From an uncultured Syntrophus sp. (GTDB lineage: Bacteria; Desulfobacterota; Syntrophia; Syntrophales; UBA5619): DNA of 64,000 nt. Below are positions 11,338-51,727 of the stretch, one piece after another (within the stretch, counting starts at the first letter, position 1; every line of letters begins with the position of its first letter). A program made the translations under genes and the position numbers. Where the stretch lies: NCBI GenBank assembly GCA_964552725.1, contig CAZKHU010000001.1, positions 2,941 to 66,940 of the forward strand, written 5' to 3'. The notes beneath the pieces were generated by a model. That model was not told the DNA's origin, searched no databases, and worked only from the letters and a program-made list of their open reading frames with translations.

Positions 11338-12753
11338 ATGGCCGAGGCAGTTATGCTGAAAAATCTGGAGCGTCTTTTCAATCCTCGTGCAGTTGCCGTG
11401 CTGGGGGCTTCCGCGAACCCCGACAAGCTCGGATTCCATGTGATGAAAAGTCTGACTTCCGGCGGGTTCAAAGGAACGATTGTCCCCGTAAATCCGGGCG
11501 CCGATTCGATCATGGGCATCCCTGCATTTTCATCCCTTGGGGATTTTCCCACCGCAATCGACCTTGCCGTGATCGTCCTGCCCGCAAAAATGGTTCCGGG
11601 GATATTTCAGGAATGCAGTCAAAAAGGCGTTAAAGGGGTTGTCTTGATAACCGCCGGCTTCAGGGAAATCGACGATCCCCAGGGCGCCGCTCTCCAGAAC
11701 GTCCTTGCCGAACTGGCCCAAAAGGCCGATCTCCCGGTTATCGGTCCCAACACCTTCGGCATGCTTAATCTCCAATTGGACTTGAACGCCTCCTTTACCC
11801 CGGAGTTCTCGTTGCTTCCCAAAGGCAATATCGCCTTCGTCAGCCAGAGCGGCGGCGTCTCGCATCTGGTCGGGTTTCTGGCCATGCGGCAGAATGTGGG
11901 TTTCAGCAAGATAGTCGGTCTCGGAAACCGCCTCAATATTGATTTCCCCGAAATGATCGCCTATCTGATGAACGATCCGGACACGCGGGTCATTGCCCTG
12001 TATATTGAAGGCATGGATGAGCCGCGAAGATTCCTGGCGGCGATGAAAAATACCCGTTTTGCCAAAAAACCCGTGGTTGCCTACAAGACCGGCAACTCCC
12101 GCACCGGCAATCAGGCCTCCGCTTCCCATACCGGGTCCCTGGCCGGGAAGCAGGAAATCTACGAAGGGGCGCTCAAACAGGCGGGCGTTCTCCAGGTTGA
12201 CAGCGCGGAGCGGCTTCTCGATACAGCGCGCGCCCTTTCCCTTTGCCCGCTCCCCGCGGAAAGAAAAGTCGCCATTCTTACAGGTCAGGCGGGTCCCGGA
12301 ATCGCGGCCGCGGATGTCTGCGAATTCGCAGGTCTGGAGATAGCCACCTTTCAGCCTGCGACTCAGATGTTGATCAACGACCTGCTTCCACCCCTTGCCA
12401 TGCGCACGAATCCCGTGGATATGGGGCCCGCCTGGTACAACACTCAAGCGATTGAGGGCATCATCGGGGCGGCGATAGAAGATGACAACGTGGACGGAAT
12501 TCTGCTGCTCATGGTATTTGCGTCAGCCAACAGGGACGCCGTAAAGGGTTTTTCCAGACTCCTGCTCGAATGGAAACAGCGGAAACCGGTTATCTCCTGT
12601 CTGCTCTCTCCGCCGGGAATCTGGGACGAGGAAATCCGGCAACTCGAGGCAGGAGGCGCACTCGTCAATTTTCCCACCCCGGAGCGGGCAGCAAGCGCCC
12701 TGGCGGCACTCTGGGAATATCGGAAAATGAGCAGTTTTGAAGATAGAACCTAA
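11338..12753 (+). CDS. CoA-binding protein resembling the alpha subunit of ADP-forming acyl-CoA synthetase (ACD/SCS-alpha-like)
   Basis: LFNPRAVAVLGASANPDKLG CoA-binding Rossmann start and a phosphohistidine-loop-like QASASHTGSLAGK. The start is ambiguous among TTG 11320, ATG 11338 and ATG 11353. Confidence 0.75.
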   Translation: MAEAVMLKNLERLFNPRAVAVLGASANPDKLGFHVMKSLTSGGFKGTIVPVNPGADSIMGIPAFSSLGDFPTAIDLAVIVLPAKMVPGIFQECSQKGVKGVVLITAGFREIDDPQGAALQNVLAELAQKADLPVIGPNTFGMLNLQLDLNASFTPEFSLLPKGNIAFVSQSGGVSHLVGFLAMRQNVGFSKIVGLGNRLNIDFPEMIAYLMNDPDTRVIALYIEGMDEPRRFLAAMKNTRFAKKPVVAYKTGNSRTGNQASASHTGSLAGKQEIYEGALKQAGVLQVDSAERLLDTARALSLCPLPAERKVAILTGQAGPGIAAADVCEFAGLEIATFQPATQMLINDLLPPLAMRTNPVDMGPAWYNTQAIEGIIGAAIEDDNVDGILLLMVFASANRDAVKGFSRLLLEWKQRKPVISCLLSPPGIWDEEIRQLEAGGALVNFPTPERAASALAALWEYRKMSSFEDRT

Positions 12754-13194: not shown

Positions 13195-13830
13195 TTACAG
13201 AGGGGCTTTGAGAATCTCGGCAAGGCTGCGCGCCGCGCCGCCGATATCGCGTTGAGCCATAATCGCCGAAACGATGGCGGCGCCGTCCGCCCCGGCCTTT
13301 ATCACCCGGCTGGCGTTTTCCGCGTCAATACCGCCGATCGCGATAACCGGGATTTTAACGGCCGCTTTGATGTCCGCCAATTCTGCAAGCGTTACCCGGT
13401 CGGCATCCGTTTTCGTGCCGGTGGGAAAAACGGCGCCGACCCCCAGATAATCGGCCCCCTCGGCCTCCATTGACAACGCATCTGCAAGCGAGTTTGCGGA
13501 GGCCCCGATGATCTTTTCCCGGCCCAGCAGCATGCGGGCAACCGGAACGGACAGATCGTCGGCGCCGAGATGAACCCCGTCGGCATCGCAGGCAAAGGCA
13601 ATGTCGATCCGGTCGTTGATGATAAGCGGAACCTCGTATCTGTCCGTAACCTCTTTTACCCTCTTCGCAATTTCCAGATATTCCCGCGAAGATATCTCCT
13701 TTTCACGGAGCTGCACAACGGTCGCCCCGCCCTGAATCGCCTCTTCAACGGCGCTCTCGAGGCTTTTTTCGCCAAGCCAGCGCCGGTCCGTTACCAGATA
13801 AAGCGAATAATCAATGCCTTTCCTTTTCAT
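13195..13830 (-). CDS. thiE: thiamine-phosphate synthase
   Basis: YLVTDR, VQLREK, DGVHLG and VIAIGGI motifs. It lies 11 nt downstream of thiC. Confidence 0.9.
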   Translation of the reverse strand: MKRKGIDYSLYLVTDRRWLGEKSLESAVEEAIQGGATVVQLREKEISSREYLEIAKRVKEVTDRYEVPLIINDRIDIAFACDADGVHLGADDLSVPVARMLLGREKIIGASANSLADALSMEAEGADYLGVGAVFPTGTKTDADRVTLAELADIKAAVKIPVIAIGGIDAENASRVIKAGADGAAIVSAIMAQRDIGGAARSLAEILKAPL

Positions 13831-13841: not shown

Positions 13842-15131
13842 TCAGGCAGCTCCCCCGTCGAGAAAACGGTTATGAGTCTTGATCGCGCAAAGATCCCCGC
13901 ACATCGTGCATACATCCCGGTTTTTGTCCTCCGTAAGACCCCGCACCCGCCTGGCCTTTGCGGGATCGATCGCCAGGCTGAACATCCCCTCCCAGTCAAA
14001 ACGCCTGCGGGCGGATGACATCTGTTCGTTTCTCTCCCACGCGCCGGGAATGCCCTTCTCGATGTCGCCTATATGGGCGGCAATCAGCGAAGCGATCACC
14101 CCGTCGTAAACATCCTGAAGCGTCGGCAGACCCAAGTGCTCCGCCGGCGTGACATAACAGAGAAAATCCGCCCCGTTGGCCGCAGCGATCGCCCCTCCGA
14201 TCGCCCCGACGATGTGATCATAGCCGGGGGCGATATCCGTCGGCAGCGGCCCGAGAACATAATACGGCGCCCCGCCGCAGAGGCGTTTCTGGAGCTTCAT
14301 GTCTCCCGCTATCCGGTGCAGGGGAACATGCCCTGGTCCCTCGACCATCGCCTGAACGCCGGCCTTTCTCGCCCGCTCGACCAGTTCCCCGAGAACGGTC
14401 AGTTCGGCAATCTGGGCCCGGTCTTCCGCATCGCCGATCGCCCCCGGACGCAGTCCATCCCCGAGAGAAAGGGTAACTTCGTGCTCTCTCGCGATTTCCA
14501 GCAGGCGATCGAAACGTTCATAAAGGGGATTTTCCCGTTTATTGAGCATCGTCCACTCCGCCATCAGACTTCCCCCCCGGGAGACAATCCCCATGACCCG
14601 ATTGCAGCCTCTCAGGACTTCCAGCGTTCTTCTCGTAATGCCGCAGTGGACGGTGATGAAATCGACCCCCATCCTGGCCTCGTCTTCAATATCCTTAAAA
14701 ATCATATCCTCCGTAAGCTCTCCGGTCTTGCGCCCCTCCTGAAACAGGCGGCTGACGGAACGGTAGATCGGCACCGTGCCGAGCATCACGGAAGAATCGG
14801 CAATCATCGCGGACAGAATCGCGTCGATATCGCCGCCCGTGGACAAATCCATCACCGCATCGGCCCCCGCGCCGATCGCCGTCCGCAATTTGCCAAGTTC
14901 TTCCCCGATATCGGCATGACTCGCCGAAGTGCCTATATTGGCGTTGATTTTTGTCGATAGTCCCGCGCCTATCCCCCGGGCGCGAAAATCGTGCGCCCGG
15001 TTTTTCGGGATAACAACAACCCCTTGCGCAAGCTTCTCCCGCATTTCCTCCGGCAGCACCCGGTCATGTTCGGCCGCCTGCTCGATCTCCCCGGTTATCT
15101 TTCCCTGCCGCGCTGACTCCAGTAGTGTCAT
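13842..15131 (-). CDS. thiC: phosphomethylpyrimidine synthase
   Basis: Strong ThiC-like sequence throughout, including the C-terminal CTMCGDLCAIK cluster motif. Start moved to MTLLESARQG (15131), downstream of the riboswitch terminator. Confidence 0.95.
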   Translation of the reverse strand: MTLLESARQGKITGEIEQAAEHDRVLPEEMREKLAQGVVVIPKNRAHDFRARGIGAGLSTKINANIGTSASHADIGEELGKLRTAIGAGADAVMDLSTGGDIDAILSAMIADSSVMLGTVPIYRSVSRLFQEGRKTGELTEDMIFKDIEDEARMGVDFITVHCGITRRTLEVLRGCNRVMGIVSRGGSLMAEWTMLNKRENPLYERFDRLLEIAREHEVTLSLGDGLRPGAIGDAEDRAQIAELTVLGELVERARKAGVQAMVEGPGHVPLHRIAGDMKLQKRLCGGAPYYVLGPLPTDIAPGYDHIVGAIGGAIAAANGADFLCYVTPAEHLGLPTLQDVYDGVIASLIAAHIGDIEKGIPGAWERNEQMSSARRRFDWEGMFSLAIDPAKARRVRGLTEDKNRDVCTMCGDLCAIKTHNRFLDGGAA

Positions 15132-15204
15132 GCTTTTTTCCTTTCTTAAAAACCTGCAAAAGTTGCTTCCCAACGGACACCCCCGCCGGACACGTTGTCA
15201 ATGA

Positions 15205-15235: not shown

Positions 15236-15254
15236 CTTGCATGTCATAAGTCCG

Positions 15255-15343
15255 GCTCATTTCCCTACGCAGGCATTACCCTGATCAGGTCAAGGGTCGC
15301 CGGAATCCCGGCATCTCAGTCCCCAAGGACACCCCTAACGAGC
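15255..15343 (-). promoter_or_regulatory. TPP (THI-box) riboswitch aptamer
   Basis: Minus-sense GCUCGUUAGGGGUGUCCUUGGGGACUGAGAUGCCGGGAUUCCGGCGACCCUUGACCUGAUCAGGGUAAUGCCUGCGUAGGGAAAUGAGC. It contains the conserved GGGGUG, CUGAGA, ACCUGAUC..GGUAAUGCC and GCGUAGGGAA elements, with a closing P1 helix GCUCGUU/AAUGAGC. Confidence 0.9.
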
Positions 15344-15431
15344 AAAAAAGCTTGATCAGCGCCGGGTTCTTCTCTGCGAAGCTTTTGAGCAATCGGTCAG
15401 CGCTGAAAAAATGTTGTCAAAAAACCTGTTA

Positions 15432-16151
15432 TCACCGACAGCTCGAACAGGCCATCAGTTCTTCCACCGGCACCCCGGTCCGCCCGCTTATGTACTGGAG
15501 CTGATCCTCGGGGGCAAAGTAACGGCCGCAGACCTTGCAGGCCGCCATCTTGAAGTCCCGTCCCCAGATCGTCCGGACATCTCCGGCAGGGGAGACATGC
15601 ATCTCGATTTGCCCCGTCGGACAGGCATAAGAACAGGCGCCGCAGCCGATGCAGACATTCGAAGGCTCGTGAAACGGGGTGCAGACATCCTTTTGCGGGC
15701 CGCGGGAGGAGAATCCGATGGCGCTCACCCCGACGATCTTCTCGCACGTCCGGACGCAAAGGCGGCAGAGGATGCATTTGTTTCCGTCTTCGGCCGCCTT
15801 GAACCGCGGCTCGGGTCTTATTCCCATATCTTCCGCCATCTTCGCAAGCTGCTCCGATTCCGGGGCGCGGGCCAGCAGAAGCTGGATCACCGTGCGCCGG
15901 ACATTCATCACCCGCTCGCTTCCGGTGTTGACAACCAGCCCCTCGGCAACCGGGTAGAGACAGGACGTTACAACCCTGGCCCGGCTCCCTTCCCCGACTT
16001 CCACGCTGCAAAGACGGCATGACCCCGACGGCTCCAGAGATTCATGGTGGCACAACGTCGGGATGCCTATGCCATTCTGCCGGGCAACCTCTAAAAGGGT
16101 CTGCCCTTCCTCCGCTTGAATCTTTTTATTGTCTATCGTCAGATTAACCAT
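15432..16151 (-). CDS. [2Fe-2S] + 2x[4Fe-4S] protein equivalent to the N-terminal FeS domain of HydA/NuoG/FdhA, with no catalytic domain
   Basis: 2Fe-2S motif CHHESLEPSGSCRLCSVEV, then CILCRLCVRTC and CIGCGACSYACP, plus a C-terminal CKVC...CSSC pair. The protein is only 239 aa. GAGGTAAAGG SD upstream; the gene starts 11 nt after the NuoF-like stop. Confidence 0.8.
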   Translation of the reverse strand: MVNLTIDNKKIQAEEGQTLLEVARQNGIGIPTLCHHESLEPSGSCRLCSVEVGEGSRARVVTSCLYPVAEGLVVNTGSERVMNVRRTVIQLLLARAPESEQLAKMAEDMGIRPEPRFKAAEDGNKCILCRLCVRTCEKIVGVSAIGFSSRGPQKDVCTPFHEPSNVCIGCGACSYACPTGQIEMHVSPAGDVRTIWGRDFKMAACKVCGRYFAPEDQLQYISGRTGVPVEELMACSSCR

Positions 16152-16162
16152 TTTTTCTACCT

Positions 16163-18016
16163 TTACCTCACGATGATCGCATCAAATTGGCAGCTTTCCT
16201 TGCAGGCGCCGCATCTCGTGCATTTATCAGAATCGATTTTGTGGGCCTTCTTCTTCTCGCCGGTCGCGGCCCCCACGGGACATACCTTTGCGCACAGGGT
16301 GCAGCCGGTGCACTTTTCCGAATCAACGCTGTAGGTGATAAGCGACTTGCAGACGCCCGCAGGACAACGTTTTTCCTTAATGTGCGCCTCGTACTCGTCA
16401 CGGAAATAACGGATCGTGCTCAAGACCGGGTTCGGGGCGCTGGTGCCGAGGGCGCAGAGGGCGCCATCCTTGATACTCGCCGCAAGCGATTCCAGCAGCT
16501 CGATATCGCCTTCCCTGCCCCTTCCTTCGGTGATATCAATAAGAATCTCCCTCATCCGCTGCACACCCTCCCGGCAGGGAACGCACTTGCCGCAGGATTC
16601 GTTCGCCAGAAAGTTCGTGAAATAGCGGGCCAGATCGACCATGCAGGTGCCTTCATCCATGACGATCATCCCGCCGGAACCCATCATCGAACCGACTTTG
16701 GTGAGTTCGTCATAGTCCACCGGCATATCCAGATACTCCTCGGGGATACAGCCGCCGGACGGGCCGCCTGTCTGAATAGCCTTGAATTTCCGGTTGTTGA
16801 GAATCCCGCCGCCGATATCAAAGACAATCTCGCGCAGCTTCGTGCCCATTGGAACCTCGACAAGACCGGTATTGTTGATCTTGCCGACCAGAGAAAATAT
16901 CTTCGTTCCCTTGCTGCGATCGGTGCCGATCCCGGCATACCAGTCGCCGCCTTTGTTGATGATGAACGGGACGTTCGCCCATGTCTCCACGTTGTTGAGG
17001 TTGGTGGGCTTGTCGTAAAGCCCCTTTTCCGTGGCATGGACATATTTGGCGCGCGGCTCGCCCGCCCTTCCCTCCAGGGAGGCGAACAATGCCGACGACT
17101 CGCCGCAGACAAAGGCGCCGCCGCCCCGGTTGACCTTGATATCGAAGGAAAATCCGCTGCCCAGGATGTTTTCGCCGAGGATGCCGGCCTCCCGCGCCTG
17201 CTTGATCGCGATATTGATGTTTTCAACGGCGAGCGGGTATTCGTTCCGGACGTAGATATACCCCTCGTTCGAACCGATCGCGTAGGCGCCGATGATCATC
17301 CCCTCCAGCACAAGGTGGGGGTTGCCTTCGAGCAGACTGCGATCCATATAGGCGCCGGGGTCTCCTTCATCGGCGTTGCAGATCACGTACTTGGGCGTTC
17401 CCGCTGCCTTGCTGGTCTCTTCCCATTTTCTGCCCGCCGGAAATCCGCCGCCGCCTCTGCCCCGCAGGTTGGCCGTTACAACCTCCCGGATAATCTCCGC
17501 GGGTTTCATTGCCAGCGCCTTGGCGAGGGCGCTGTACCCGTCAACGGCAAGATAATCTTCCATGTTTTTCGGATCAACCTTGCTGTTCATTCCAAAGACG
17601 GTTCTGGTCTGCCTCTTGTAGAACGGCACCTCATCCTCATGGACATATTTCTCGTCGGTCTGGGGGTTGGCATAGAGCAGACTGTCAATTATCTCGCCCT
17701 TCAGGAGCGTCTTCTCGACAATCTCCCCCACGTCCCTGACTGTCACGTGCTGGTAAAAAATATTCTCCGGGGCAAGAATCACCATCGGCCCCCGTTCACA
17801 GAACCCGTGACACCCGGTCTTGCGGAAGTCGATCTTGACGGAGAGTCCCCGCCGATCGATCTCCTCGCTGAAAGCGTCGGCCACGCTCATGGCCCCGTGG
17901 GCAAGGCAGCCGGTACCGACGCAGATGGTAATGCGCAACTTTTGAGGATCGCGGCCGGCCTTGATCTTCTCCTGCAACTGCTTCAATTCACTGAAGGATT
18001 TAATTTTGCTCGTCAT
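16163..18016 (-). CDS. NuoF/HydB-like NAD(P)H-binding FMN iron-sulfur flavoprotein
   Basis: N-terminal thioredoxin-like 2Fe-2S domain (ICVGTGC...TGCHGFCERGP), FMN/NADH motifs GRGGGGFPAGRKWE, N3 cluster ESCGKCVPCREG, and a C-terminal 2x[4Fe-4S] (CTGCTLCAKVCP, CTRCGACKESC). Start moved to MTSKIK (18016) to clear the NuoE-like gene. Confidence 0.9.
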   Translation of the reverse strand: MTSKIKSFSELKQLQEKIKAGRDPQKLRITICVGTGCLAHGAMSVADAFSEEIDRRGLSVKIDFRKTGCHGFCERGPMVILAPENIFYQHVTVRDVGEIVEKTLLKGEIIDSLLYANPQTDEKYVHEDEVPFYKRQTRTVFGMNSKVDPKNMEDYLAVDGYSALAKALAMKPAEIIREVVTANLRGRGGGGFPAGRKWEETSKAAGTPKYVICNADEGDPGAYMDRSLLEGNPHLVLEGMIIGAYAIGSNEGYIYVRNEYPLAVENINIAIKQAREAGILGENILGSGFSFDIKVNRGGGAFVCGESSALFASLEGRAGEPRAKYVHATEKGLYDKPTNLNNVETWANVPFIINKGGDWYAGIGTDRSKGTKIFSLVGKINNTGLVEVPMGTKLREIVFDIGGGILNNRKFKAIQTGGPSGGCIPEEYLDMPVDYDELTKVGSMMGSGGMIVMDEGTCMVDLARYFTNFLANESCGKCVPCREGVQRMREILIDITEGRGREGDIELLESLAASIKDGALCALGTSAPNPVLSTIRYFRDEYEAHIKEKRCPAGVCKSLITYSVDSEKCTGCTLCAKVCPVGAATGEKKKAHKIDSDKCTRCGACKESCQFDAIIVR

Positions 18017-18021
18017 TGTAT

Positions 18022-18480
18022 TTATACCTTCTTCCCTAATTTCTTGAGGAGCTTTGTCGTTTTGGCGATATTCATTTCCCCGTGATACTCGCCGTCCACC
18101 ACAACAATCGGCCCCAGGGCGCAGGCCCCGAGGCAACCGACCGTCTCGAAAGAATACTCGAGGTCAGCGGTCGTCTCGCCATCCCTGATCCCCAGCATGC
18201 TGGTGATGTTGGCGGCAATGAATTCGGCGCCGCGAACATGGCAGGCGGTGCCCATGCAGAGGCTGATATGATGACGTCCTTTCGGTTTCAGGCTGAAAGC
18301 CTTGTAAAACGTCGCGACCTCGTACACCCGGCTTACCGGCACACCGAGATTGGCGCTGATTGCCATCAGGGCTTCCTTGGAAAGATAACCGAGTTCCTTC
18401 TGGACGTCCTGCATGATGGGAACCAGATAACTCCTGTCTCCGCCGTAGCCTTGCACGATTTCCTTTACCTTTTCTTCCAT
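18022..18480 (-). CDS. NuoE/HydC-like [2Fe-2S] subunit
   Basis: Thioredoxin-like 2Fe-2S motif CMGTACHVRG...CLGACALGP. Confidence 0.9.
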   Translation of the reverse strand: MEEKVKEIVQGYGGDRSYLVPIMQDVQKELGYLSKEALMAISANLGVPVSRVYEVATFYKAFSLKPKGRHHISLCMGTACHVRGAEFIAANITSMLGIRDGETTADLEYSFETVGCLGACALGPIVVVDGEYHGEMNIAKTTKLLKKLGKKV

Positions 18481-18518
18481 TATCTCTCTACCTCGTTTTC
18501 AAATTTTACGGTCGGCTG

Positions 18519-19514
18519 CTATTTTTTCAACTGCTCCCTGATCTCGGCGCGGGATCTGGAACTCTCGATCTTGATCATGAGCGCCTCCCACTCGATATCG
18601 ACCCTCTCCTGAATGGTCTGTATCTGGTCAGGCGTTACATGACGAAACCGCCCCTGGCTTTTCAGATACTCCCCCACCGGGCGCCGTTTCACCGGAAGCG
18701 GCAGGGTAAAGCGATACTTGCCGTCCTCAACCTCGTAAATGGGGAAAACGCCGGTCTCGTAGGCAAGACGTCCAAGCTGGATGCTGGTTTCCGATGGCGA
18801 CCGCCATCCGGTAGGACAGGTGACCAGACAATGGATATAAGCAGGTCCCTTGACCTCGCGGGCCTTTTTCACCTTGTTCATGAAATCGATGGGATAGGCC
18901 GGAGACGCCGTTGCAACATAGGGAATGTTGTGGGCAACCATGATCTCCATGACGTTTTTCTTCCAGACCTGATTTCCGGGAATTTTCTTGCCGGCCGGGG
19001 CGGTAGTCGTCGAGGCCAGAAACGGCGTTCCGCTGGAACGCTGGATGCCGGTATTCATATAGGCTTCGTTGTCGAAGCAGACATAGAGCATGTCGTGACC
19101 CCGCTCCATCGCCCCGGACAGGGCCTGGAACCCGATGTCCATCGTTCCCCCGTCGCCGCCGATGGCAACGGATTTCACCCTTTTATCCGGAATCCGCCCC
19201 TTGCGGCGCAGGGATGTCAGGCCCGCTTCCACGCCGGAGCCAACCGCCGCCGCATTCGGAAATGCCACGTGTATCCAGGGCAGGTTCCAGGCAGTGGTCG
19301 GATAGAGGCTGGAGATGACCTCCATGCAGCCGGTGGCATTGGTAATAACCGTCTCCTTGCCGAGGGCCTTGCACATCAGGCGAATGGCCAGCGCTTCCGC
19401 GCAGCCCTGGCAGGCGCGATGACCGGGGCTGAAGAATTCCTGCCGGCTTACCAGCTTGGGGGCGTACAGATCAAAGTTTTCTATAATTTTAGGGCTGCTT
19501 GTCAATGTAGTCAT
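18519..19514 (-). CDS. 2-oxoacid:ferredoxin oxidoreductase, beta (TPP-binding) subunit
   Basis: [15 protein letters not shown] and [19 protein letters not shown] motifs. The start overlaps the alpha-subunit stop. Confidence 0.9.
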
Positions 19515-20680
19515 TATCCCCTCACTCCGTAAAATTCATAAGGTTCTGAAAGTTTGCCTCCGGCAGCCTTCTTCACCATCGCCATAAAATCAGATACCTG
19601 AACATCCCTGCCTCCGAGTCCGATAATATAGTTCACAATCACGGGACGAACCGGCTCGTCATACAGGGCGGACCGAATCTCCGAACAAACCGGCCCGCCG
19701 GGTCCGCCGAAGGAAACAGCCCGGTCGGTCACCGCCAGCACGCGAATTCCCTTGACGGCATTTTTCAGGTCTGCAAAAGGGAAGGGGCGCCAAAGCTTAA
19801 TCTTGATCAAACCCGCCTTCACGCCTTCCTTGCGCAGTTCATCAACCGCAACCTCCGCGGTTTCACCCATGGAACCCATTGTGACCAGGGCAACATCGGC
19901 GTCTTCAGTGCGGTAAGTCTGGACAGGCTCGTACTTGCGTCCGAACTGGGTTTCCCATTCCTTCCATACCTCCTTGATAACCTTGATCGAATTGACCAAA
20001 GCGACGTCCTTGGCTTTCTGGGATTCCGAAAATATCTCCGGCATCGCGAGCGTTCCCATCGAAACCGGCTTGTCCGGATGCAGCGTGGCGTAAGGGACAA
20101 TGGGGGGAAGGAAACGATCCACCTCTTCCTGATCGGGCATGATGAGCGGCTCCACCATGTGGGTCAACTGAAAACCGTCCATCATGACGTTGACGGGAAG
20201 CATCACTTCGCGATTTTCGGCAACCTTGTAGGCCTGAATGACCATGTCGACCGCTTCCTGGCCGTTGTCCGAAAAAAAGGTAATCCAGCCGGTATCCCGC
20301 ATCGGCATGATATCGCTGTGATCGTTCCAGATGTTGATCGGAGAGGAAACGGCCCGGTTCGCCACGATCATGACGATCGGCAGCCTCATGCCCGAAGCGA
20401 TCGGCATGACCTCGCTCATATAGAGAAGCCCCTGGGAACTGGTAGCCGTGACAACCCGGGCGCCGGTTCCGGCAGCGCCAATAACGGCGCTCAGGGCGGA
20501 ATGCTCCGACTCCACGGTCATGAAAGAGGCATCCACCCGTCCATCGTTGACGATATCCGACAGATGCTCGGCCACATGGGACTGAGGCGTAATGGGATAC
20601 ACGGCTGCCATGTCAAACCGGCAAAGGGCGGCCGCCTCCGCCGCCGCAATTGCGACTTCAATTCCTACTCGTTTTCCCAT
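19514..20680 (-). CDS. 2-oxoacid:ferredoxin oxidoreductase, alpha subunit
   Basis: [10 protein letters not shown]...ESEHSA...TATSSQGL signature of PorA/VorA/KorA-type subunits. Confidence 0.9.
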
Positions 20681-20683
20681 CGG

Positions 20684-20977
20684 CTATCCCTCCTCATTCG
20701 CCATTGCAATGGCGCCTGTCCAGCACTCTTTCGCACAGATTCCGCAACCTTTGCAGTAATCCAGATTAGCCTCGAAAAAACCGTCGGCATCCTCGGTTAT
20801 ACAGCCCTCGGGACAGTATATATAGCAAAGGCCGCACTTTATGCATTTCACCTTATCCCAGAGCGGACGTTTCGCCCGCCAGCTTCCGGTATGATATTCC
20901 GAAGCGCTTCCCGGGCGCATGACCATACAGCCGGGATTGACCTCCTGCCATGTTTCAGGCCACTTTTTGTCTGACAT
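20684..20977 (-). CDS. 2-oxoacid:ferredoxin oxidoreductase, delta (2x[4Fe-4S]) subunit
   Basis: CIKCGLCYIYCP and CKGCGICAKEC motifs in a 97-aa PorD-like protein. Confidence 0.85.
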   Translation of the reverse strand: MSDKKWPETWQEVNPGCMVMRPGSASEYHTGSWRAKRPLWDKVKCIKCGLCYIYCPEGCITEDADGFFEANLDYCKGCGICAKECWTGAIAMANEEG

Positions 20978-20998
20978 TGCGATACCTCAAGAGTTATT

Positions 20999-21553
20999 TT
21001 ATCCTTCGTTGATAATCCTGACCTCTTCGTAGGCCCGTTTCGCGGCGTTTTGATTCTTTGCCGCAATTCTGCCGAATCTCTCCTTGATCGGATTTTCCAG
21101 CGATTCCAGCTTCACCGCAGCCGACATCCTGACCACGGCGCCGAGCATGGTTGTATTGGTAATCGGAACGCCCAGTTCCTTCCACGCAATGCCCGTGGCA
21201 TCGCAGACGGCGATTCTGCCTGCAAATTTGATATTGGCTCTGAGCTCTTCCAGGTTTCTGGTAGTGTTGACAATCAACGTCCCCGTCCGCTTGAGCCCCT
21301 CGGCGACATCAACCATCGCGATCAGGCTTTCGTCAAGAACCACGACAACATCCGGGGTGTAGATTCCCGAACGGATCTTTATCTGCTTTTCGTCCACCCG
21401 GTTAAAGGCAGCAACCGGCGCCCCGCGTCGCTCCGGCCCGAAACTGGGGAACCCCTGGGCGAATCTTCCCTCGCCAATGGCCGACAGGGCCAGCAGTTCC
21501 ACCGACGTGACCGCTCCCTGACCGCCTCTCCCATGCCATCTGATTTCTAACAT
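20999..21553 (-). CDS. 2-oxoacid:ferredoxin oxidoreductase, gamma subunit
   Basis: EIRWHGRGGQGAVT...FPSFGPERRGAP signature of gamma subunits. GGGAGA SD upstream. Confidence 0.9.
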   Translation of the reverse strand: MLEIRWHGRGGQGAVTSVELLALSAIGEGRFAQGFPSFGPERRGAPVAAFNRVDEKQIKIRSGIYTPDVVVVLDESLIAMVDVAEGLKRTGTLIVNTTRNLEELRANIKFAGRIAVCDATGIAWKELGVPITNTTMLGAVVRMSAAVKLESLENPIKERFGRIAAKNQNAAKRAYEEVRIINEG

Positions 21554-21599
21554 TCGTCAAATCTCCCGTGTTAATTGACTTTCCAAATACCGAGTTGTG

Positions 21600-21628
21600 G
21601 CCATACAATACTTGGCAGAGACTGTCAA
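21600..21628 (-). promoter_or_regulatory. candidate sigma-70-type promoter for the OFOR operon
   Basis: Minus-sense TTGACA-17 nt-TATGGC, about 45 nt upstream of the gamma-subunit ATG and just after the recR stop. Based on a motif match only. Confidence 0.35.
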
Positions 21629-21636
21629 CTGCGTAT

Positions 21637-22647: not shown

Positions 22648-24465
22648 TCAGCTCCCCGGCCGGTCATCTTCATCCAGCCCTTCATCGGTCAGCGGAATCT
22701 CGGGTATGACTGCGGGAAATGCCGCTTCGACCTGATCGCGCACCTTCACTTCCCGCACCTCCGCGCCTGGAAAGACATCGAGAATCTTCCGAACCAGCGG
22801 ATGGGAGAGCGCTTCCTGACGGATTCCCCGGCTCTGATTGTTCTTTTCCGCCAGAGCCTTTGCCTTGAGCCCGTTTCCCCCGCCTGCCGGCATAACAGCC
22901 TCTATCTCCACCTTCGTTTCCCTTTTCCAAAACTGCCGGCAGTAATCCGCCAGTTTATCCTTTTGCCGGTCAACATCGTTGAAGAAGAGATACCCTTTTT
23001 CAAACCCGATCCGGAGAAGCCCGTCTTCGCAGGATAAACACCTCCCCTGCTGGAGCTTCGCGGAAAGGGCGGGATCATGCTGCTTCAGGAATGCCCTGAA
23101 GCCCTCCCATCCCTTCCCCCCGCTCAGATCTTCTCCCGCCTCTCCATTGCCGGTCAGGCTTGCGCCTCTTCCAGCCTCCTCCGGTCCGGCTCCATAGGTA
23201 GGGCGCTCCTCCCTTGCAGCCGGCGGCGCCACGGATGCGGCGTATTTCTCCGTAATGGCTCCCCCATGCATATCTCCGCCCGGCGAAGAAACGGCTTTGC
23301 CCCTGACAGTCCCTCCGCCCAGGCGCATTTCCAGTCCTTCCATCCGCCCGATAATCTCTTCAAGGGGAATAAGCTGCTCCAGATATGCCATCCGGCAGAG
23401 AACCGCTTCCAGATTGAGACGGGGGTTCTGACTCCGGCGTACATTTTCCTCCTCTGCCATCAGCAATTCCAGAAGGCGCCGCAGCGTCCCGGCTTCTTGT
23501 CCATCCGTCTGCTGCCGCAATCGCGCCTTCTCCTCACCGGGGATGTCTATCAGCGAATCGCTGTCGCTTATAATCTTTACGAGCAGCAGGTTGCGGAAAT
23601 GATTAAGGAGCGTTTGATAAAAATAGCGCATATCGAGGCCGCAATAGTAGGCCTCGTCGACGATTTTCAGACAGCGGCCGGCATCCCTGGCCAGTACCGC
23701 CTCGGACAAAACCAGCAGAAAACGGCGATCGGAGCGACCGATAATTTCCTCCACCGCCTCATCTTTGATCTCGCTGCCCGCGTAGGATATAACCTGATCG
23801 AAGATGCTCTGGGAATCGCGCAAACTGCCGTCGCCCGCTTCGGCAATCCAGGCAAGGGCACTGTCGCTGACAGAAATATTTTCCAGGGACGCTATCCACC
23901 GGAGATTTTCCTTTATCTGCTTCTGGGAGATCCTCCGGAAATCGAAACACTGGCAGCGGGAGCGGATAGTGGCCGGCACCTTGTTGGTTTCCGTCGTCGC
24001 GAAGATAAAGATAACATGGGATGGCGGCTCCTCCAGGGTTTTAAGCAGCGCGTTGAACGCCTCCCTGGTCAGCATGTGCACTTCGTCAATTATGTAAATC
24101 TTGTAGCGGCCGGAAGCAGCGGAAAATTTTACGTTCTCGCGCAGTTCGCGAATCTCGTCTATCCCCCGGTTGGAGGCGCCGTCTATTTCCCGGACATCGA
24201 TGGCGTTTCCGTTCGTTATTTCACGGCAGTGGACACATTCATTGCAGGGCGTCGGAGTCGGCCCGGTTATGCAGTTAAGGGCCTTCGCCAGTATCCGGGC
24301 AACCGATGTCTTGCCCACCCCGCGCGGCCCGCTGAAGAGAAAGGCATGGGCAATGCGCTTTTGGGAAATCGCATTTTGCAGCGTCCTTACGACGTGCTCC
24401 TGACCCGTTACCTCTTCAAATCTCTGGGGACGGCACTTTCGTGCCAGAACGCGGTATTCCTGCAC
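22648..24465 (-). CDS. dnaX: DNA polymerase III subunit gamma/tau
   Basis: RPQRFEEVTGQEH, GPRGVGKT Walker A, CNECVHC zinc module and DEVHML box. Start moved from track position 24522 to GTG 24465 (AGGAG SD 5 nt upstream), because 24497-24600 encodes SRP RNA. Confidence 0.9.
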   Translation of the reverse strand: MQEYRVLARKCRPQRFEEVTGQEHVVRTLQNAISQKRIAHAFLFSGPRGVGKTSVARILAKALNCITGPTPTPCNECVHCREITNGNAIDVREIDGASNRGIDEIRELRENVKFSAASGRYKIYIIDEVHMLTREAFNALLKTLEEPPSHVIFIFATTETNKVPATIRSRCQCFDFRRISQKQIKENLRWIASLENISVSDSALAWIAEAGDGSLRDSQSIFDQVISYAGSEIKDEAVEEIIGRSDRRFLLVLSEAVLARDAGRCLKIVDEAYYCGLDMRYFYQTLLNHFRNLLLVKIISDSDSLIDIPGEEKARLRQQTDGQEAGTLRRLLELLMAEEENVRRSQNPRLNLEAVLCRMAYLEQLIPLEEIIGRMEGLEMRLGGGTVRGKAVSSPGGDMHGGAITEKYAASVAPPAAREERPTYGAGPEEAGRGASLTGNGEAGEDLSGGKGWEGFRAFLKQHDPALSAKLQQGRCLSCEDGLLRIGFEKGYLFFNDVDRQKDKLADYCRQFWKRETKVEIEAVMPAGGGNGLKAKALAEKNNQSRGIRQEALSHPLVRKILDVFPGAEVREVKVRDQVEAAFPAVIPEIPLTDEGLDEDDRPGS

Positions 24466-24496
24466 AAACGCTCCTGCGAAAAAATGGATGAAAATA

Positions 24497-24600
24497 GGGA
24501 TAGCCGGGTTTGTCCGCAGCACACGCCGGTAACTGCTGCCGCTGCTTCCTTCCGGACCTGACGGGGTTGGCAGGCCGCCGTCGCACGGGACCCGGCTATC
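24497..24600 (-). ncRNA. ffs: signal recognition particle RNA (small, 4.5S-type)
   Basis: Minus-sense GAUAGCCGGGU...CCCGUCAGGUCCGGAAGGAAGCAGCGGCAGCAG...GGCGUGUGCUGCGG...ACCCGGCUAUC. The conserved domain IV motif GUCAGGUCCGGAAGGAAGCAGC is present and an 11-bp terminal helix closes the molecule. It sits at the conserved position immediately upstream of dnaX. Confidence 0.85.
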
Positions 24601-24639: not shown

Positions 24640-24733
24640 TGGCGGAGAGAGCGGGATTCGAACCCGCGGTACACCTTTGAGGGCGCACACACGATTTCCA
24701 GTCGTGCTCCTTCAGCCGCTCGGACATCTCTCC
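24640..24733 (-). tRNA. tRNA-Ser (anticodon GGA), CCA encoded
   Basis: The minus-sense sequence GGAGAGAUGUCCGAGCGGCUGAAGGAGCACGACUGGAAAUCGUG...GCGGGUUCGAAUCCCGCUCUCUCCGCCA folds as a cloverleaf. Acceptor stem is 7 bp, the anticodon loop is CU-GGA-AA, the variable arm is long, and the T-loop is GUUCGAAUC. Confidence 0.9.
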
Positions 24734-51707: not shown

Positions 51708-51727
51708 TATCTTCCCGCTCCTTTTTC

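What the first reader, a model, noticed from the sequence alone, without database searches (positions are those of the whole stretch)
15432..21553. Four-subunit 2-oxoacid:ferredoxin oxidoreductase in one operon with a NuoE/NuoF/HydA-N-terminal (HydABC/Bfu-type) module that has no catalytic subunit
Seven co-directional genes lie with gaps of 38 bp or less, and two junctions overlap. In order they are OFOR gamma, delta, alpha and beta, a NuoE-like 2Fe-2S protein, a NuoF-like protein, and a 239-aa FeS protein.

The NuoF-like protein carries FMN/NAD(H) motifs, an extra N-terminal 2Fe-2S domain and a C-terminal 2x[4Fe-4S]. The 239-aa protein corresponds only to the FeS 'wire' domain of HydA/NuoG/FdhA. 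In characterised HydABC, Hnd and Fdh-Hyl type enzymes, the third subunit carries the H-cluster or a Mo/W centre. Here that position is empty, and the only catalytic partner in the transcription unit is the TPP enzyme.

This suggests a multi-subunit 2-oxoacid:NAD(P)+ oxidoreductase, possibly coupled to ferredoxin or electron-confurcating. It would be conceptually analogous to the fused pyruvate:NADP+ oxidoreductase of Euglena. I do not know of a biochemically described bacterial complex with this composition.
Basis: partly seen in the sequence, partly recalled or inferred. Interest (0 to 1): 0.7.

Follow-up and report, generated by a model that had tools for sequence, protein, structure and literature searches.

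The report
Pyruvate oxidoreductase operon with bifurcating module
A syntrophic bacterium encodes an ordinary four-subunit pyruvate:ferredoxin oxidoreductase in one operon with the NADH- and ferredoxin-handling core of an electron-bifurcating enzyme; this 'Por-Bfu' arrangement was predicted in print in 2022, but its activity has still not been measured.

Summary
Seven tightly packed minus-strand genes (21553..15432) encode PorG, PorD, PorA, PorB, a NuoE/HydC-like protein, a NuoF/HydB-like protein of 617 aa, and a 239-aa FeS protein.

That paper reported it in Dehalococcoidia and syntrophic Deltaproteobacteria. I found no biochemical characterisation in the held literature up to mid-2026.

Three results here support the assignment:
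- **Bifurcating-type signatures.** The BfuB/BfuC pair carries every published sequence signature of bifurcating enzymes.
- **A known kind of short subunit.** The 239-aa protein is a full-length homologue of WorA of the characterised WorABCSL, which also has no catalytic centre.
- **Invariant synteny.** The order porGDAB-bfuCBA held in 54 of 54 informative Syntrophales/Smithellaceae loci.

No hydrogenase, formate dehydrogenase or tungsten enzyme gene lies in the 64-kb window.

The most likely function is a seven-subunit pyruvate:NAD+/ferredoxin oxidoreductase. In these acetyl-CoA-centred syntrophs it probably runs as an NADH-plus-reduced-ferredoxin pyruvate synthase.

It is a new member of a known, uncharacterised kind, of moderate interest.

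The parts
21554..21636 (-). recR-porG intergenic region; probable promoter region of the operon (TTGACA, 17 nt, TATGGC read by eye)
   Evidence: Sequence. The scan did not list it because the second hexamer lacks the final T. This assignment is tentative and inferred.
20999..21553 (-). porG (gamma subunit, 184 aa)
   Evidence: PF01558 POR, E 1.7e-36. TIGR02175 PorC_KorC scores 217 bits against a cut-off of 81.
20684..20977 (-). porD (delta subunit, 97 aa, 2x[4Fe-4S])
   Evidence: TIGR02179 PorD_KorD scores 98 bits against a cut-off of 60. Eight cluster cysteines are invariant in 32 orthologues.
19514..20680 (-). porA (alpha subunit, 388 aa)
   Evidence: POR_N plus PFOR_II. Best PDB match is 9bt4_B, the alpha subunit of a four-subunit pyruvate:ferredoxin oxidoreductase, E 2e-90. 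The YPITPQ.H and [14 protein letters not shown] motifs are shared with it and differ in oxalate oxidoreductase.
18519..19514 (-). porB (beta subunit, 331 aa, TPP and [4Fe-4S])
   Evidence: TPP_enzyme_C. NF008819 PorB scores 425.5 bits against a cut-off of 405. Best PDB match is 9bt4_C, E 1.5e-92. C35, C38, C63 and C229 are invariant.
18022..18480 (-). bfuC (NuoE/HydC-like, 152 aa, [2Fe-2S] C1)
   Evidence: PF01257, E 3.9e-49. The eight best PDB matches are all C subunits of enzymes named in the Bfu literature (NiFe-HydC, HydC, NfnC, WorC), ahead of complex I NuoE. C75, C80, C116 and C120 are invariant.
16163..18016 (-). bfuB (NuoF/HydB-like, 617 aa). It carries an N-terminal [2Fe-2S] site (B5), the FMN/NAD(H) core with [4Fe-4S] B1, a Cys/His site (B2/Zn) and a C-terminal 2x[4Fe-4S] (B3, B4).
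   Evidence: Pfam domains. PDB matches: 805 bits to bifurcating HydB 8a6t_B, 796 to 9mqx_B and 781 to NiFe-HydB. NuoF/FdsB types score 393 bits or less and cover the core only. Signature residues GAYM, GAFVCGE and GGPSG are present (against the criteria). Cysteines are invariant.
15432..16151 (-). bfuA (239 aa, WorA-like Type 2 BfuA). It has one [2Fe-2S], two [4Fe-4S] and a C-terminal Cys4 zinc-finger motif, with no catalytic domain.
   Evidence: Best PDB match is 9mqx_A (247 aa), E 4.1e-55 over residues 2-239. The HxxxCxxCx5C motif is absent. Sixteen cysteines are invariant in 81 sequences.

Best explanation
**What it is.** The seven genes form one operon for a 'Por-Bfu' enzyme. This is a four-subunit, TPP-dependent pyruvate:ferredoxin oxidoreductase (PorGDAB) joined to a Type 2 BfuABC module.

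**Proposed electron path (inferred from homologous structures).**
- TPP and the proximal [4Fe-4S] in PorB pass electrons to the two [4Fe-4S] clusters of PorD.
- From PorD they enter the two [4Fe-4S] clusters and the [2Fe-2S] (A1) of the short BfuA.
- They then reach the B1-FMN-C1 'flavobicluster' of BfuB/BfuC.
- There, pairs of mid-potential electrons are split between NAD+ at the FMN and ferredoxin, via C1 and the C-terminal B3/B4 clusters of BfuB.

**Overall reaction, reversible.** 2 pyruvate + 2 CoA + NAD+ + 2 Fd(ox) <-> 2 acetyl-CoA + 2 CO2 + NADH + 2 Fd(red).

**Likely physiological direction.** Syntrophales funnel their substrates to acetyl-CoA and must make reduced ferredoxin from NADH through Rnf, at the expense of the ion gradient. 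In them the likely direction is confurcating pyruvate synthesis. NADH would supply half of the electrons, halving the reduced-ferredoxin cost of carbon assimilation.

**What is shown and what is inferred.**
- Shown: gene content, cofactor-ligand motifs, bifurcating-type signatures, homology to solved Bfu and POR structures, and strictly conserved linkage.
- Inferred: physical complex formation, pyruvate as the substrate, the stoichiometry, the coupling, and the physiological direction.
For: **Operon anatomy.** Gaps are 21, 3, -1, 38, 5 and 11 nt. The porB-bfuC spacer holds no predicted terminator, and only its Shine-Dalgarno sequence is conserved across relatives. A TPP riboswitch with thiC begins a new unit 85 nt downstream. 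The dnaX-ybaB-recR genes lie upstream.

**Linkage.** 323 stretches in the species-representative genome collection encode a relative of BfuA. Among the best 80 loci, 54 have at least 5.5 kb of upstream DNA.
- All 54 show porG-D-A-B-bfuC-B-A in the same order and on the same strand. Two of them have split matches within one gene.
- 25 shorter contigs are consistent with this order.
- The cluster is also present in cultured Syntrophus aciditrophicus SB and S. buswellii.

**Bifurcating type.**
- The best PDB matches of BfuB score 664-805 bits, and six of the top seven belong to enzymes named as bifurcating in the papers read. Non-bifurcating NuoF/FdsB types score 393 bits or less.
- BfuC behaves likewise.
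- The Losey et al. 2020 criteria are met: Ala and Met in the GAYM stretch, Phe in GAFVCGE, GGPSG, an N-terminal [2Fe-2S] and a C-terminal 2x[4Fe-4S].
- Ligand cysteines are invariant across 65-81 orthologues.

**BfuA.** It is a full-length homologue of 9mqx_A, including the zinc finger, and it ends before the last 13 residues of 9mqx_A. This is the description of the Por-Bfu WorA homologue given in PMC12318220.

**Por.** PorA and PorB are closest to the four-subunit pyruvate:ferredoxin oxidoreductase 9bt4. PorA also shares its active-site motifs.

**No other partner nearby.** No hydrogenase, FDH or W-AOR gene lies in the 64 kb.

**Literature.**
- Schut 2022 predicts Por-Bfu and cites co-expression of the genes in Dehalococcoides mccartyi 195.
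- Agne 2022 states that pyruvate synthase serves acetyl-CoA assimilation in S. aciditrophicus, with Fd(red) supplied by Rnf.

**Thermodynamics (my calculation).** I used E0' of -500 mV from Table 1 of PMC9304861 and 30.8 mV per decade. With acetyl-CoA/CoA of 1-10, CO2 of 0.1-0.3 atm and pyruvate of 10-100 uM, the couple sits at about -410 to -330 mV. That lies between NAD (-280 mV) and ferredoxin (-500 mV), as a Bfu third substrate should.
Against: - No protein-level evidence exists for a seven-subunit complex or for coupling.
- In S. aciditrophicus soluble extracts, pyruvate plus CoA reduced ferredoxin at 12 nmol/min/mg without added NAD+. Fd(red)-to-NAD+ activity in the soluble fraction was below 0.1 (Agne 2022). 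If Por-Bfu is that organism's only POR, this argues against tight coupling. Other OFORs, endogenous NAD+ or low expression could also explain it.
- The probable bfuB of that organism appears in their Table S1 only at '+' abundance.
- Por subunits linked to Bfu show no large docking extension relative to unlinked paralogues.
- Loci L030 and L033 combine window-like por genes with a different bfu lineage. The two modules are therefore exchangeable cassettes.
- Only PorB reaches an NCBIfam equivalog cut-off, so pyruvate specificity is probable rather than proven.
Confidence: 0.55

Rival explanations
1. Two separate enzymes are merely co-transcribed. A conventional ferredoxin-dependent POR works with a free BfuABC that acts as a soluble, non-bifurcating ferredoxin:NAD+ oxidoreductase. 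The pair then exchanges electrons between pyruvate and NAD(H) through diffusible ferredoxin.
For: - The por and bfu cassettes recombine independently (L030 and L033).
- Por carries no obvious docking extension.
- S. aciditrophicus extracts reduce ferredoxin with pyruvate without added NAD+.
Against: - Soluble Fd(red):NAD+ activity was below 0.1 nmol/min/mg in those same extracts.
- A BfuA whose only role is to bring in electrons from a third partner would be pointless, yet all 16 of its ligand cysteines and its zinc finger are invariant.
- Every characterised Type 2 Bfu enzyme docks a partner onto BfuA.
- Linkage held in 54 of 54 informative loci.
Confidence: 0.15
2. A physical Por-Bfu complex exists but does not bifurcate. 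It is a plain pyruvate:NAD(P)+ oxidoreductase or NADH-dependent pyruvate synthase. Functionally it would resemble Euglena PNO or the NADH-dependent phenylglyoxylate dehydrogenase PadEFGHI, with ferredoxin not involved.
For: - Pyruvate (E0' -500 mV) could reduce NAD+ directly, so bifurcation is not needed in the oxidative direction (discussed in PMC9304861).
- NCBIfam shows distant similarity of the Por subunits to PadE, PadF, PadG and PadI.
Against: - BfuB keeps the C-terminal 2x[4Fe-4S] domain that passes electrons to ferredoxin (PMC11829005), and it keeps all the signature residues of bifurcating enzymes. Known non-bifurcating homologues lack these.
- NADH alone (-280 to -320 mV) would be a poor donor for pyruvate synthesis.
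- Wor-Bfu, which also uses a very low-potential donor, is strictly three-substrate coupled.
Confidence: 0.15
3. [quoted passage not shown] Their position next to por would then be incidental or regulatory.
For: - Agne 2022 lists three NuoF-like 'BamH' genes in S. aciditrophicus. One of them, SYN_RS00435, probably is this bfuB, judging by its gene number against its position near 88 kb (inference).
- Bam-Bfu and Por-Bfu BfuBs sit in the same clade 45.
Against: - The 64-kb window has no such partner, and neither do the 10-kb flanks of the S. aciditrophicus locus.
- Linkage to por is invariant across Syntrophales.
- S. aciditrophicus HydAB and the FDHs have their own non-bifurcating NuoF-like subunits, and extracts show no bifurcating hydrogenase or FDH activity.
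- BfuA lacks the NuoG C-terminal domain and the WorA C-terminal helix.
Confidence: 0.07
4. The TPP enzyme acts on a 2-oxoacid other than pyruvate, such as 2-oxoisovalerate, 2-oxobutyrate, oxalate or an aryl-glyoxylate. The complex would then serve amino-acid or aromatic metabolism.
For: - PorA, PorG and PorD fall below the NCBIfam equivalog cut-offs.
- The VOR, OOR and Pad models also match.
- The organism carries benzoyl-CoA pathway genes.
Against: - All four subunits score best against POR models, and PorB passes the PorB cut-off.
- The nearest structures are the 9bt4 pyruvate:ferredoxin oxidoreductase subunits. The substrate-site motifs of PorA match 9bt4 and differ in oxalate oxidoreductase.
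Confidence: 0.08

Closest known systems
Por-Bfu, the predicted Type 2 member of the BfuABC family (Schut et al. 2022, PMC9304861; example in Dehalococcoides mccartyi 195)
   Same: It has the same seven-gene composition: four POR subunits plus BfuA, BfuB and BfuC. BfuA is short and lacks clusters A3 and A5. Per PMC12318220, the WorA homologue of Por-Bfu has the zinc finger but no C-terminal helix. The class is reported in 'syntrophic Proteobacteria', the group this window belongs to.
   Different: Nothing differs in kind; this is another member. This analysis adds:
- far more members (323 matching stretches in species genomes, against 12 sequences in the paper);
- invariant synteny within Syntrophales;
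- a Syntrophus sub-lineage whose BfuB has lost the four B5 cysteines.

The class itself has never been characterised biochemically.
WorABCSL (Wor-Bfu) of Acetomicrobium mobile, PDB 9mqx, a characterised bifurcating tungsten aldehyde oxidoreductase
   Same: The BfuA here aligns end to end with WorA (E 4.1e-55), including the absence of the His-ligated cluster and the presence of the Cys4 zinc finger. BfuB scores 796 bits and BfuC 118 bits against WorB and WorC. Both enzymes use a very low-potential third substrate.
   Different: The catalytic partner is a TPP enzyme (PorGDAB), not the tungstopterin WorL with the polyferredoxin WorS. The last 13 residues of WorA, the helix tied to oligomerisation with WorS, are missing here.
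Bifurcating [FeFe] hydrogenase HydABC (T. kivui 8a6t, T. maritima 7p5h, A. woodii 7q4v)
   Same: The HydB/HydC core is homologous, at about 62% identity to T. kivui HydB over residues 130-614. The gene order C-B-A and the N-terminal FeS part of HydA are also shared.
   Different: There is no H-cluster domain and no His-ligated [4Fe-4S] in the A subunit. Catalysis is delegated to separate subunits.
Four-subunit pyruvate:ferredoxin oxidoreductase PorABDG (PDB 9bt4) and archaeal/Thermotoga POR
   Same: The subunit set, TPP motif, FeS cysteines and active-site motifs match. These are the best PDB matches for PorA and PorB.
   Different: Stand-alone PORs deliver electrons only to free ferredoxin or flavodoxin and are not linked to a NuoEF-type module.
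NADH-dependent phenylglyoxylate dehydrogenase PadEFGHI (NCBIfam NF045762-NF045766; Azoarcus evansii enzyme, from my own knowledge)
   Same: It is a bacterial multi-subunit OFOR that reduces NAD+. It is the nearest biochemically described analogue of a '2-oxoacid:NAD+ oxidoreductase made of separate subunits'. The Por subunits here match the Pad models weakly.
   Different: All scores are far below the Pad cut-offs. The NAD module of Pad is a single FAD protein (PadH), not a NuoE/NuoF/HydA-N module, and no bifurcation has been proposed for it.
Pyruvate:NADP+ oxidoreductase (PNO) of Euglena and Cryptosporidium
   Same: It is conceptually the same: a PFOR coupled to a pyridine-nucleotide-reducing flavoprotein.
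   Different: PNO is a single fused polypeptide with a cytochrome-P450-reductase-type FMN/FAD domain. That domain is unrelated to NuoEF, is NADP-specific and does not bifurcate.

Membership tests
BfuABC family (definition of Schut et al. 2022) | BfuB carries the Nuo51 FMN domain (IPR011538), SLBB (IPR019554), the NuoF 4Fe-4S region (IPR019575) and a ferredoxin-type 4Fe-4S domain (IPR017896). | tested here: met
   PF01512 E 5.4e-43; PF10589 E 2.3e-33; Fer4 family domains at residues 603-655 of the 657-aa ORF. SLBB PF10531 has E 2.6e-4 (21 bits, below Pfam's cut-off of 27), but the GGPSG motif is present.
BfuABC family (definition of Schut et al. 2022) | BfuC carries the NuoE-type thioredoxin-like [2Fe-2S] domain (IPR002023). 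| tested here: met
   PF01257 E 3.9e-49. Four cysteines are invariant. The best PDB matches are Bfu C subunits.
BfuABC family (definition of Schut et al. 2022) | BfuA carries at least a 2Fe-2S ferredoxin-type domain (IPR001041) and a 4Fe-4S ferredoxin-type domain (IPR017896). | tested here: met
   PF13510 and PF00111 plus Fer4_7 and Fer4_21.
BfuABC family | The BC-core cofactor ligands are conserved: B1, B3, B4, C1, the B2 Cys/His site and B5. | tested here: met
   C475/478/481/521, C569-579, C599-609, H545/C551/C556 and C32/37/69/73 are present in the window protein. All are invariant in orthologues except B5, which one sub-lineage has lost. B5 is dispensable according to PMC11829005.
Bifurcating versus non-bifurcating NuoF-like beta subunits (criteria of Losey et al. 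2020) | Ala or Glu and Met near the NADH site; Phe instead of Tyr near FMN; GGPSG in SLBB; extra N- and C-terminal FeS domains. | tested here: met
   The sequence has DEGDPGAYMD, GGGAFVCGE and TGGPSGG, plus an N-terminal [2Fe-2S] and a C-terminal 2x[4Fe-4S].
BfuABC family | Tightly coupled three-substrate electron bifurcation, in which NAD and Fd are reduced only together. | not testable with these tools
   This needs purified enzyme. Existing extract data from S. aciditrophicus are ambiguous.
Type 2 Bfu / Por-Bfu | BfuA lacks clusters A3 and A5 and has no catalytic domain. It is WorA-like, with a zinc finger. | tested here: met
   It is 239 aa with three FeS motifs and no HxxxCxxCx5C motif. 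It aligns over its full length with 9mqx_A, and the CxxC...CxxC motif is invariant.
Type 2 Bfu / Por-Bfu | Four POR subunit genes lie in the same cluster as bfuABC. | tested here: met
   The arrangement is conserved in 54 of 54 informative loci.
Type 2 Bfu / Por-Bfu | The seven subunits form one physical complex, with PorD clusters in electron-transfer distance of BfuA. | not testable with these tools
   No multimer prediction was available. The single-chain AF2 model of BfuA was poor (mean pLDDT 60.9).
Four-subunit pyruvate:ferredoxin oxidoreductase (PorABDG) | Alpha, beta, gamma and delta subunits with a TPP-binding beta subunit and FeS cysteines in beta and delta. | tested here: met
   PDB 9bt4 is the best match for alpha and beta.
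Four-subunit pyruvate:ferredoxin oxidoreductase (PorABDG) | Equivalog-level scores for pyruvate-specific subunit models. | tested here: inconclusive
   PorB scores 425.5 against a cut-off of 405 and passes. PorA (471.7 against 550), PorG (220 against 225-270) and PorD (114.4 against 120) fall below.
HydABC / Hox / Fds-type hydrogenase or formate dehydrogenase | An H-cluster, NiFe or Mo/W-pterin catalytic subunit in the operon. | tested here: not met
   BfuA ends at 239 aa. No such gene lies in the 64-kb window.
Respiratory complex I N-module (NuoEFG) | NuoF without extra FeS domains, NuoG with a C-terminal molybdopterin-like domain, and adjacency to nuoA-N. | tested here: not met
   Extra N- and C-terminal FeS domains are present. 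The TIGR01973 NuoG model matches only residues 4-95. No nuo genes lie nearby.
NADH-dependent phenylglyoxylate dehydrogenase PadEFGHI | Equivalog scores for PadE/F/G/I and the presence of the FAD subunit PadH. | tested here: not met
   Scores of 172, 80, 338 and 233 fall below cut-offs of 300, 150, 700 and 700. No PadH-like gene is in the operon.

The most novel reading that the evidence does not exclude
Por-Bfu is a true seven-subunit, flavin-based electron-bifurcating enzyme, and the first TPP enzyme known to be wired to a BfuBC core. In Syntrophales it is the main anabolic pyruvate synthase and runs in the confurcating direction: NADH + 2 Fd(red) + 2 acetyl-CoA + 2 CO2 -> 2 pyruvate. That would halve the Rnf and ion-gradient cost of carbon assimilation in organisms living at the thermodynamic limit. 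A corollary is that part of the 'Rnf-dependent' pyruvate-to-NAD+ activity measured in S. aciditrophicus, and the 'BamH' annotation of SYN_RS00435, would need reinterpreting.
Probability: 0.4. Interest if true: 0.65.

Novelty: new member of a known kind. Interest (0 to 1): 0.38.

Why it matters
If Por-Bfu works as predicted, it extends flavin-based electron bifurcation to the central acetyl-CoA/pyruvate node.

It would also change energy budgets for Syntrophus and Smithella, which are key degraders of benzoate, fatty acids and alkanes in methanogenic systems, and for Dehalococcoidia. Metabolic models of these organisms treat the genes as a plain ferredoxin-dependent POR (for example PMC5606693 and PMC8805022). 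They charge the whole cost of pyruvate synthesis to reduced ferredoxin made by Rnf.

The hypothesis itself is already published. The value of this locus lies elsewhere:
- it shows how widespread and rigidly conserved the arrangement is in Syntrophales;
- it points to cultured, tractable hosts (S. aciditrophicus, S. buswellii) for the missing biochemistry.

Tried and rejected
1. **Internal promoter in the porB-bfuC spacer.** The scan found TTGAAA-16-TAAAAT at 18530..18503. The hexamers are not conserved in 11 relatives; only the Shine-Dalgarno sequence ACGAGG is. It is not supported, though not excluded.
2. **Intrinsic terminator after bfuA.** A 9-bp stem followed by a U-run folds no better than shuffled sequence (z = 0.86). 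The 3' boundary therefore rests on the TPP riboswitch.
3. **Functional link to thiC and thiE downstream** (TPP supply for a TPP enzyme). thiC follows bfuA in only 2 of 62 loci, so the adjacency is coincidental.
4. **PorB-BfuC gene fusion as Rosetta-stone evidence.** An apparent 490-aa PorB in L047 was an artefact of my ORF-extension script. The genes are separate.
5. **Docking extensions on Bfu-linked Por subunits.** Compared with unlinked Smithella paralogues, the only difference is a PorB C-terminal tail about 8-15 residues longer. This is not informative.
6. **AlphaFold2 model of BfuA.** Built from a 13-sequence alignment, it gave mean pLDDT 60.9, with the FeS regions below 50. I ran no fold search on it.
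7. **Two Por-Bfu copies in one MAG (L036, L038).** They are 95% identical, flanks included. This reflects strain heterogeneity in the bin, not paralogy.
8. **Literature searches.** Searches for locus tags SYN_RS00415-00440 and for the Dehalococcoides DET0724/DET0728 tags found nothing usable. Four papers were not held: PMC1863511, PMC6488403 and PMC4178663.
9. **Independent acquisitions of Por-linked BfuB.** In a small NJ tree, the Syntrophales sequences form one clade relative to five PDB BfuBs. The tree has no bootstrap and few outgroups.

Full report
**Observation**

The region 15432-21553 holds seven minus-strand ORFs:

| Gene | Coordinates | Length |
|---|---|---|
| porG | 21553..20999 | 184 aa |
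| porD | 20977..20684 | 97 aa |
| porA | 20680..19514 | 388 aa |
| porB | 19514..18519 | 331 aa |
| NuoE-like gene | 18480..18022 | 152 aa |
| NuoF-like gene | stop at 16163 | see below |
| FeS protein gene | 16151..15432 | 239 aa |

The mechanical ORF for the NuoF-like gene starts at a TTG at 18136 (657 aa). An ATG at 18016 lies 5 nt after the preceding stop and gives a 617-aa protein. Its N-terminus aligns from residue 4 with residue 3 of HydB and with the orthologues.

The intergenic distances are therefore 21, 3, -1, 38, 5 and 11 nt. The largest gap is 38 nt, as claimed. Only one junction truly overlaps.

**Boundaries and surroundings**

- Upstream on the same strand lie dnaX, ybaB and recR, then an SRP RNA and tRNA-Ser.
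- A TPP riboswitch (15346..15245) begins 85 nt downstream of the last gene, followed by thiC and thiE. This is a separate regulatory unit.
- Pfam scans of 40 further ORFs across the 64 kb found housekeeping genes and a benzoyl-CoA-pathway-like cluster. They found no hydrogenase, formate dehydrogenase, tungsten oxidoreductase or nuo genes.
- The window comes from an uncultured Syntrophales bacterium, judged by a 100% identical protein named by NCBI.

**What the three non-Por proteins are**

*The NuoF-like protein (BfuB).*
- It scores 664-805 bits against the B subunits of solved HydABC/Bfu-type enzymes. These include T. kivui, A. woodii and T. maritima HydB, NiFe-HydB, 9mqx_B and NfnB.
- It scores only 393 bits or less, over the core alone, against NuoF and FdsB.
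- It carries the three residue signatures that Losey et al. 2020 use to separate bifurcating from non-bifurcating beta subunits: Ala and Met in DEGDPGAYMD, Phe in GGGAFVCGE, and GGPSG.
- It also has the N-terminal [2Fe-2S] and the C-terminal 2x[4Fe-4S] domains.

*The NuoE-like protein (BfuC).* Its eight best PDB matches are the C subunits of such enzymes, ahead of complex I NuoE.

*The 239-aa protein (BfuA).*
- It aligns from residue 2 to 239 with 9mqx_A (E 4.1e-55). This 247-aa 'NuoG-like' chain is WorA of WorABCSL from Acetomicrobium mobile.
- Like WorA, it lacks the His-ligated [4Fe-4S] of HydA and NuoG. The sequence LLLARAPESE stands where HxxxCxxCx5C would be.
- It keeps one [2Fe-2S] site and two [4Fe-4S] sites.
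- It ends in a CxxC...CxxC zinc-finger motif and lacks the last 13 residues of WorA.
- PMC12318220 describes the WorA homologue of Por-Bfu in exactly these terms.

*Conservation of ligands.* Across 41-81 orthologues, every cluster-ligand cysteine of BfuA, BfuB, BfuC, PorD and PorB is invariant. The one exception is the B5 site of BfuB, which the Syntrophus-type sub-lineage has lost. Li et al. 2025 show that B5 is not part of the minimal bifurcation site.

**The Por part**

- PorA and PorB are closest to the subunits of the solved four-subunit pyruvate:ferredoxin oxidoreductase 9bt4 (E 2e-90 and 1.5e-92).
- PorA shares its YPITPQ.H and [14 protein letters not shown] motifs. Oxalate oxidoreductase differs at both.
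- PorB passes NCBIfam's PorB equivalog cut-off. The other three subunits score best against POR models but fall below their cut-offs.
- Pyruvate is therefore the probable substrate, not a proven one.

**Conservation of the linkage**

- The BfuA family is large: 2,478 database proteins at E <= 1e-10. There are 323 matching stretches in the collection of one genome per species.
- The best 80 loci are all labelled Syntrophus, Smithella, Syntrophales or unclassified 'Deltaproteobacteria', apart from a few Desulfobacterales labels and one Spirochaetota label.
- I ran tblastn with the seven window proteins against these loci. All 54 loci with at least 5.5 kb of upstream DNA show porG-D-A-B-bfuC-B-A in the same order and on the same strand. 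Two of them have split matches within one gene.
- A further 25 shorter contigs are consistent with this order.
- recR lies upstream in 44 loci, against 50 loci with at least 7 kb of upstream DNA. The chromosomal position is therefore old.
- thiC lies downstream in only 2 of 62, so that adjacency is incidental.
- The cluster is present in cultured S. buswellii DM-2 (L025) and in S. aciditrophicus SB at about 84.5-90.7 kb of CP000252, after the fumarase genes.
- The porB-bfuC spacer conserves only its Shine-Dalgarno sequence. The promoter-like match found by the scan is not conserved.
- Loci L030 and L033 combine window-like por genes (80-86% identity) with the other bfu lineage (BfuC 43-44%, BfuB 56-57%). 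The two modules are exchangeable cassettes that nevertheless always stay linked.
- In a small NJ tree, the Syntrophales BfuBs form one clade, with WorB as the nearest of five solved BfuBs.

**Comparison with the literature**

- Schut et al. 2022 (PMC9304861) define the BfuABC family and list 'Por-Bfu (A-G)'. They describe it as an uncharacterised Type 2 member with four pyruvate oxidoreductase subunits.
[quoted passage not shown] They suggest it makes pyruvate for gluconeogenesis from NADH and ferredoxin, and they cite co-expression of the genes in D. mccartyi 195.
- A full-text search for 'Por-Bfu' found only that paper and a 2025 PNAS paper that still treats it as hypothetical.
- The library lacks most subscription-journal papers, so a characterisation published elsewhere cannot be excluded.

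**Mechanism proposed**

By homology with the solved Bfu structures, the electron path would run as follows:
1. Electrons from TPP-bound pyruvate pass the PorB [4Fe-4S] and the two PorD clusters.
2. They enter BfuA through its two [4Fe-4S] clusters and the A1 [2Fe-2S].
3. They reach the B1-FMN-C1 flavobicluster.
4. NAD+ is reduced at the FMN. Low-potential electrons leave through C1 and B3/B4 to ferredoxin.

The thermodynamics fit. I took E0' = -500 mV for the pyruvate couple (Table 1 of PMC9304861) and 30.8 mV per decade. With plausible ratios (acetyl-CoA/CoA 1-10, CO2 0.1-0.3 atm, pyruvate 10-100 uM), the effective potential is about -410 to -330 mV (my calculation). That lies between NAD (-280 mV) and ferredoxin (-500 mV), which is what a Bfu third substrate requires.

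In S. aciditrophicus, pyruvate synthase serves acetyl-CoA assimilation, and reduced ferredoxin is thought to come from Rnf at the cost of the ion gradient (PMC8805022). A confurcating pyruvate synthase would halve that cost. This physiological direction is inference.

**Evidence that cuts the other way**

- Agne et al. measured pyruvate- and CoA-dependent ferredoxin reduction (12 nmol/min/mg) in soluble S. aciditrophicus extract without added NAD+. They found no soluble Fd(red):NAD+ activity.
- If Por-Bfu were the only POR and were tightly coupled, the first result would be unexpected.
- Other OFORs, carry-over NAD+ or low expression are possible explanations. I could not examine the whole genome to test them.
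- Their Table S1 lists a NuoF-like 'BamH' at SYN_RS00435 with '+' abundance. The gene number, about 87, matches the position of bfuB near 88 kb. No bam genes lie within 10 kb of it. It is probably this gene. This is my inference and is not verified.
- Their pyruvate-to-NAD+ 'Rnf' assay contained soluble extract, so it does not exclude a Por-Bfu contribution.

**Verdict**

The function is plausible and matches a published prediction, the novelty claim fails, and nothing has been shown at the protein level.
- The locus is a new member of a known but biochemically uncharacterised kind.
- Interest is moderate. A specialist would not be surprised. The rigid conservation in a key syntroph order, and its presence in cultured strains, make the open question directly testable.

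Noticed in passing
window 15245-15346 (-), 13842-15173 (-), 13195-13830 (-): A TPP riboswitch (68 bits, above Rfam's gathering score) precedes thiC and thiE directly downstream of the TPP-dependent Por operon. thiC follows bfuA in only 2 of 62 related loci, so the adjacency looks coincidental.
   Followed up: yes
L025, L027, L023, L019, L030, L033, L032 and others (BfuB N-terminus): One Por-linked BfuB sub-lineage, which includes Syntrophus buswellii, has replaced all four cysteines of the N-terminal thioredoxin-like [2Fe-2S] (B5) site...VGMATSGIASGA...TGSMGMD... The window lineage and the Smithella lineage keep them. This fits the view that B5 is dispensable for bifurcation.
   Followed up: partly
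L030 and L033 (whole loci): These are mosaic operons. PorGDAB is 80-86% identical to the window, but BfuC is 43-44% and BfuB 56-57%, the values typical of the Syntrophus-type lineage. This implies recombination between the por and bfu cassettes at the porB/bfuC junction.
   Followed up: partly
L041, L051, L055, L061, L074, L076 (2-8 kb downstream of bfuA): Several Smithella genomes carry a second porGDAB set without bfu genes close to the Por-Bfu operon. It is about 40% identical to the first set. This suggests a division of labour between a classical OFOR and the Bfu-linked one.
   Followed up: no
L065 591-1310: In a 3-kb, roughly 3x-coverage contig, bfuC and the FMN/NAD core of bfuB are missing. 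A 239-aa ORF joins the BfuB N-terminus directly to its B1 and C-terminal ferredoxin part, between porB and bfuA. It is either an assembly artefact or a degenerate variant.
   Followed up: partly
L081 (S. aciditrophicus SB, CP000252 about 84.5-90.7 kb): The Por-Bfu operon of S. aciditrophicus follows class I fumarate hydratase genes, with no bam genes within 10 kb. The NuoF-like gene listed as 'BamH, SYN_RS00435' in Table S1 of PMC8805022 is probably this bfuB, judging by gene number against position. That assignment may need revising.
   Followed up: partly
window 50940-54234 (-), 57065-59269 (-), 59751-61355 (-): Two enoyl-CoA hydratase-family genes and a zinc alcohol-dehydrogenase-family gene sit together. 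The arrangement is reminiscent of dch/oah/had of the benzoyl-CoA lower pathway. A sigma-54 activator with GAF domains and an AMP-forming CoA ligase lie nearby. This suggests an aromatic- or alicyclic-acid-degrading Syntrophales organism.
   Followed up: no
window 24499-24597 (-), 24640-24733 (-): A bacterial small SRP RNA and a tRNA-Ser(GGA) lie just upstream of dnaX. The 5' end of the mechanical 624-aa dnaX ORF (22648..24522, GTG) overlaps the SRP RNA, so the true dnaX start is probably further downstream.
   Followed up: no
window 8157-12753 (+): Three neighbouring plus-strand genes of unclear role sit a few kb from the operon. They encode an HI0933-like flavoprotein, a DUF362 protein with a C-terminal 2x[4Fe-4S] domain, and a CoA-binding/Succ_CoA_lig protein resembling ADP-forming acyl-CoA synthetases.
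   Followed up: no
L036 and L038: One MAG (MFD02979.bin.2.91) holds two Por-Bfu loci that are 95% identical, flanks included. This reflects strain heterogeneity in the bin, not paralogues.
   Followed up: yes
database names of BfuA homologues: Public annotations of this 239-aa family are inconsistent. They include 'bidirectional [NiFe] hydrogenase diaphorase subunit', 'NADH:ubiquinone oxidoreductase subunit G' and 'NADP-reducing hydrogenase subunit HndC'. None of them reflects the Por linkage.
   Followed up: no
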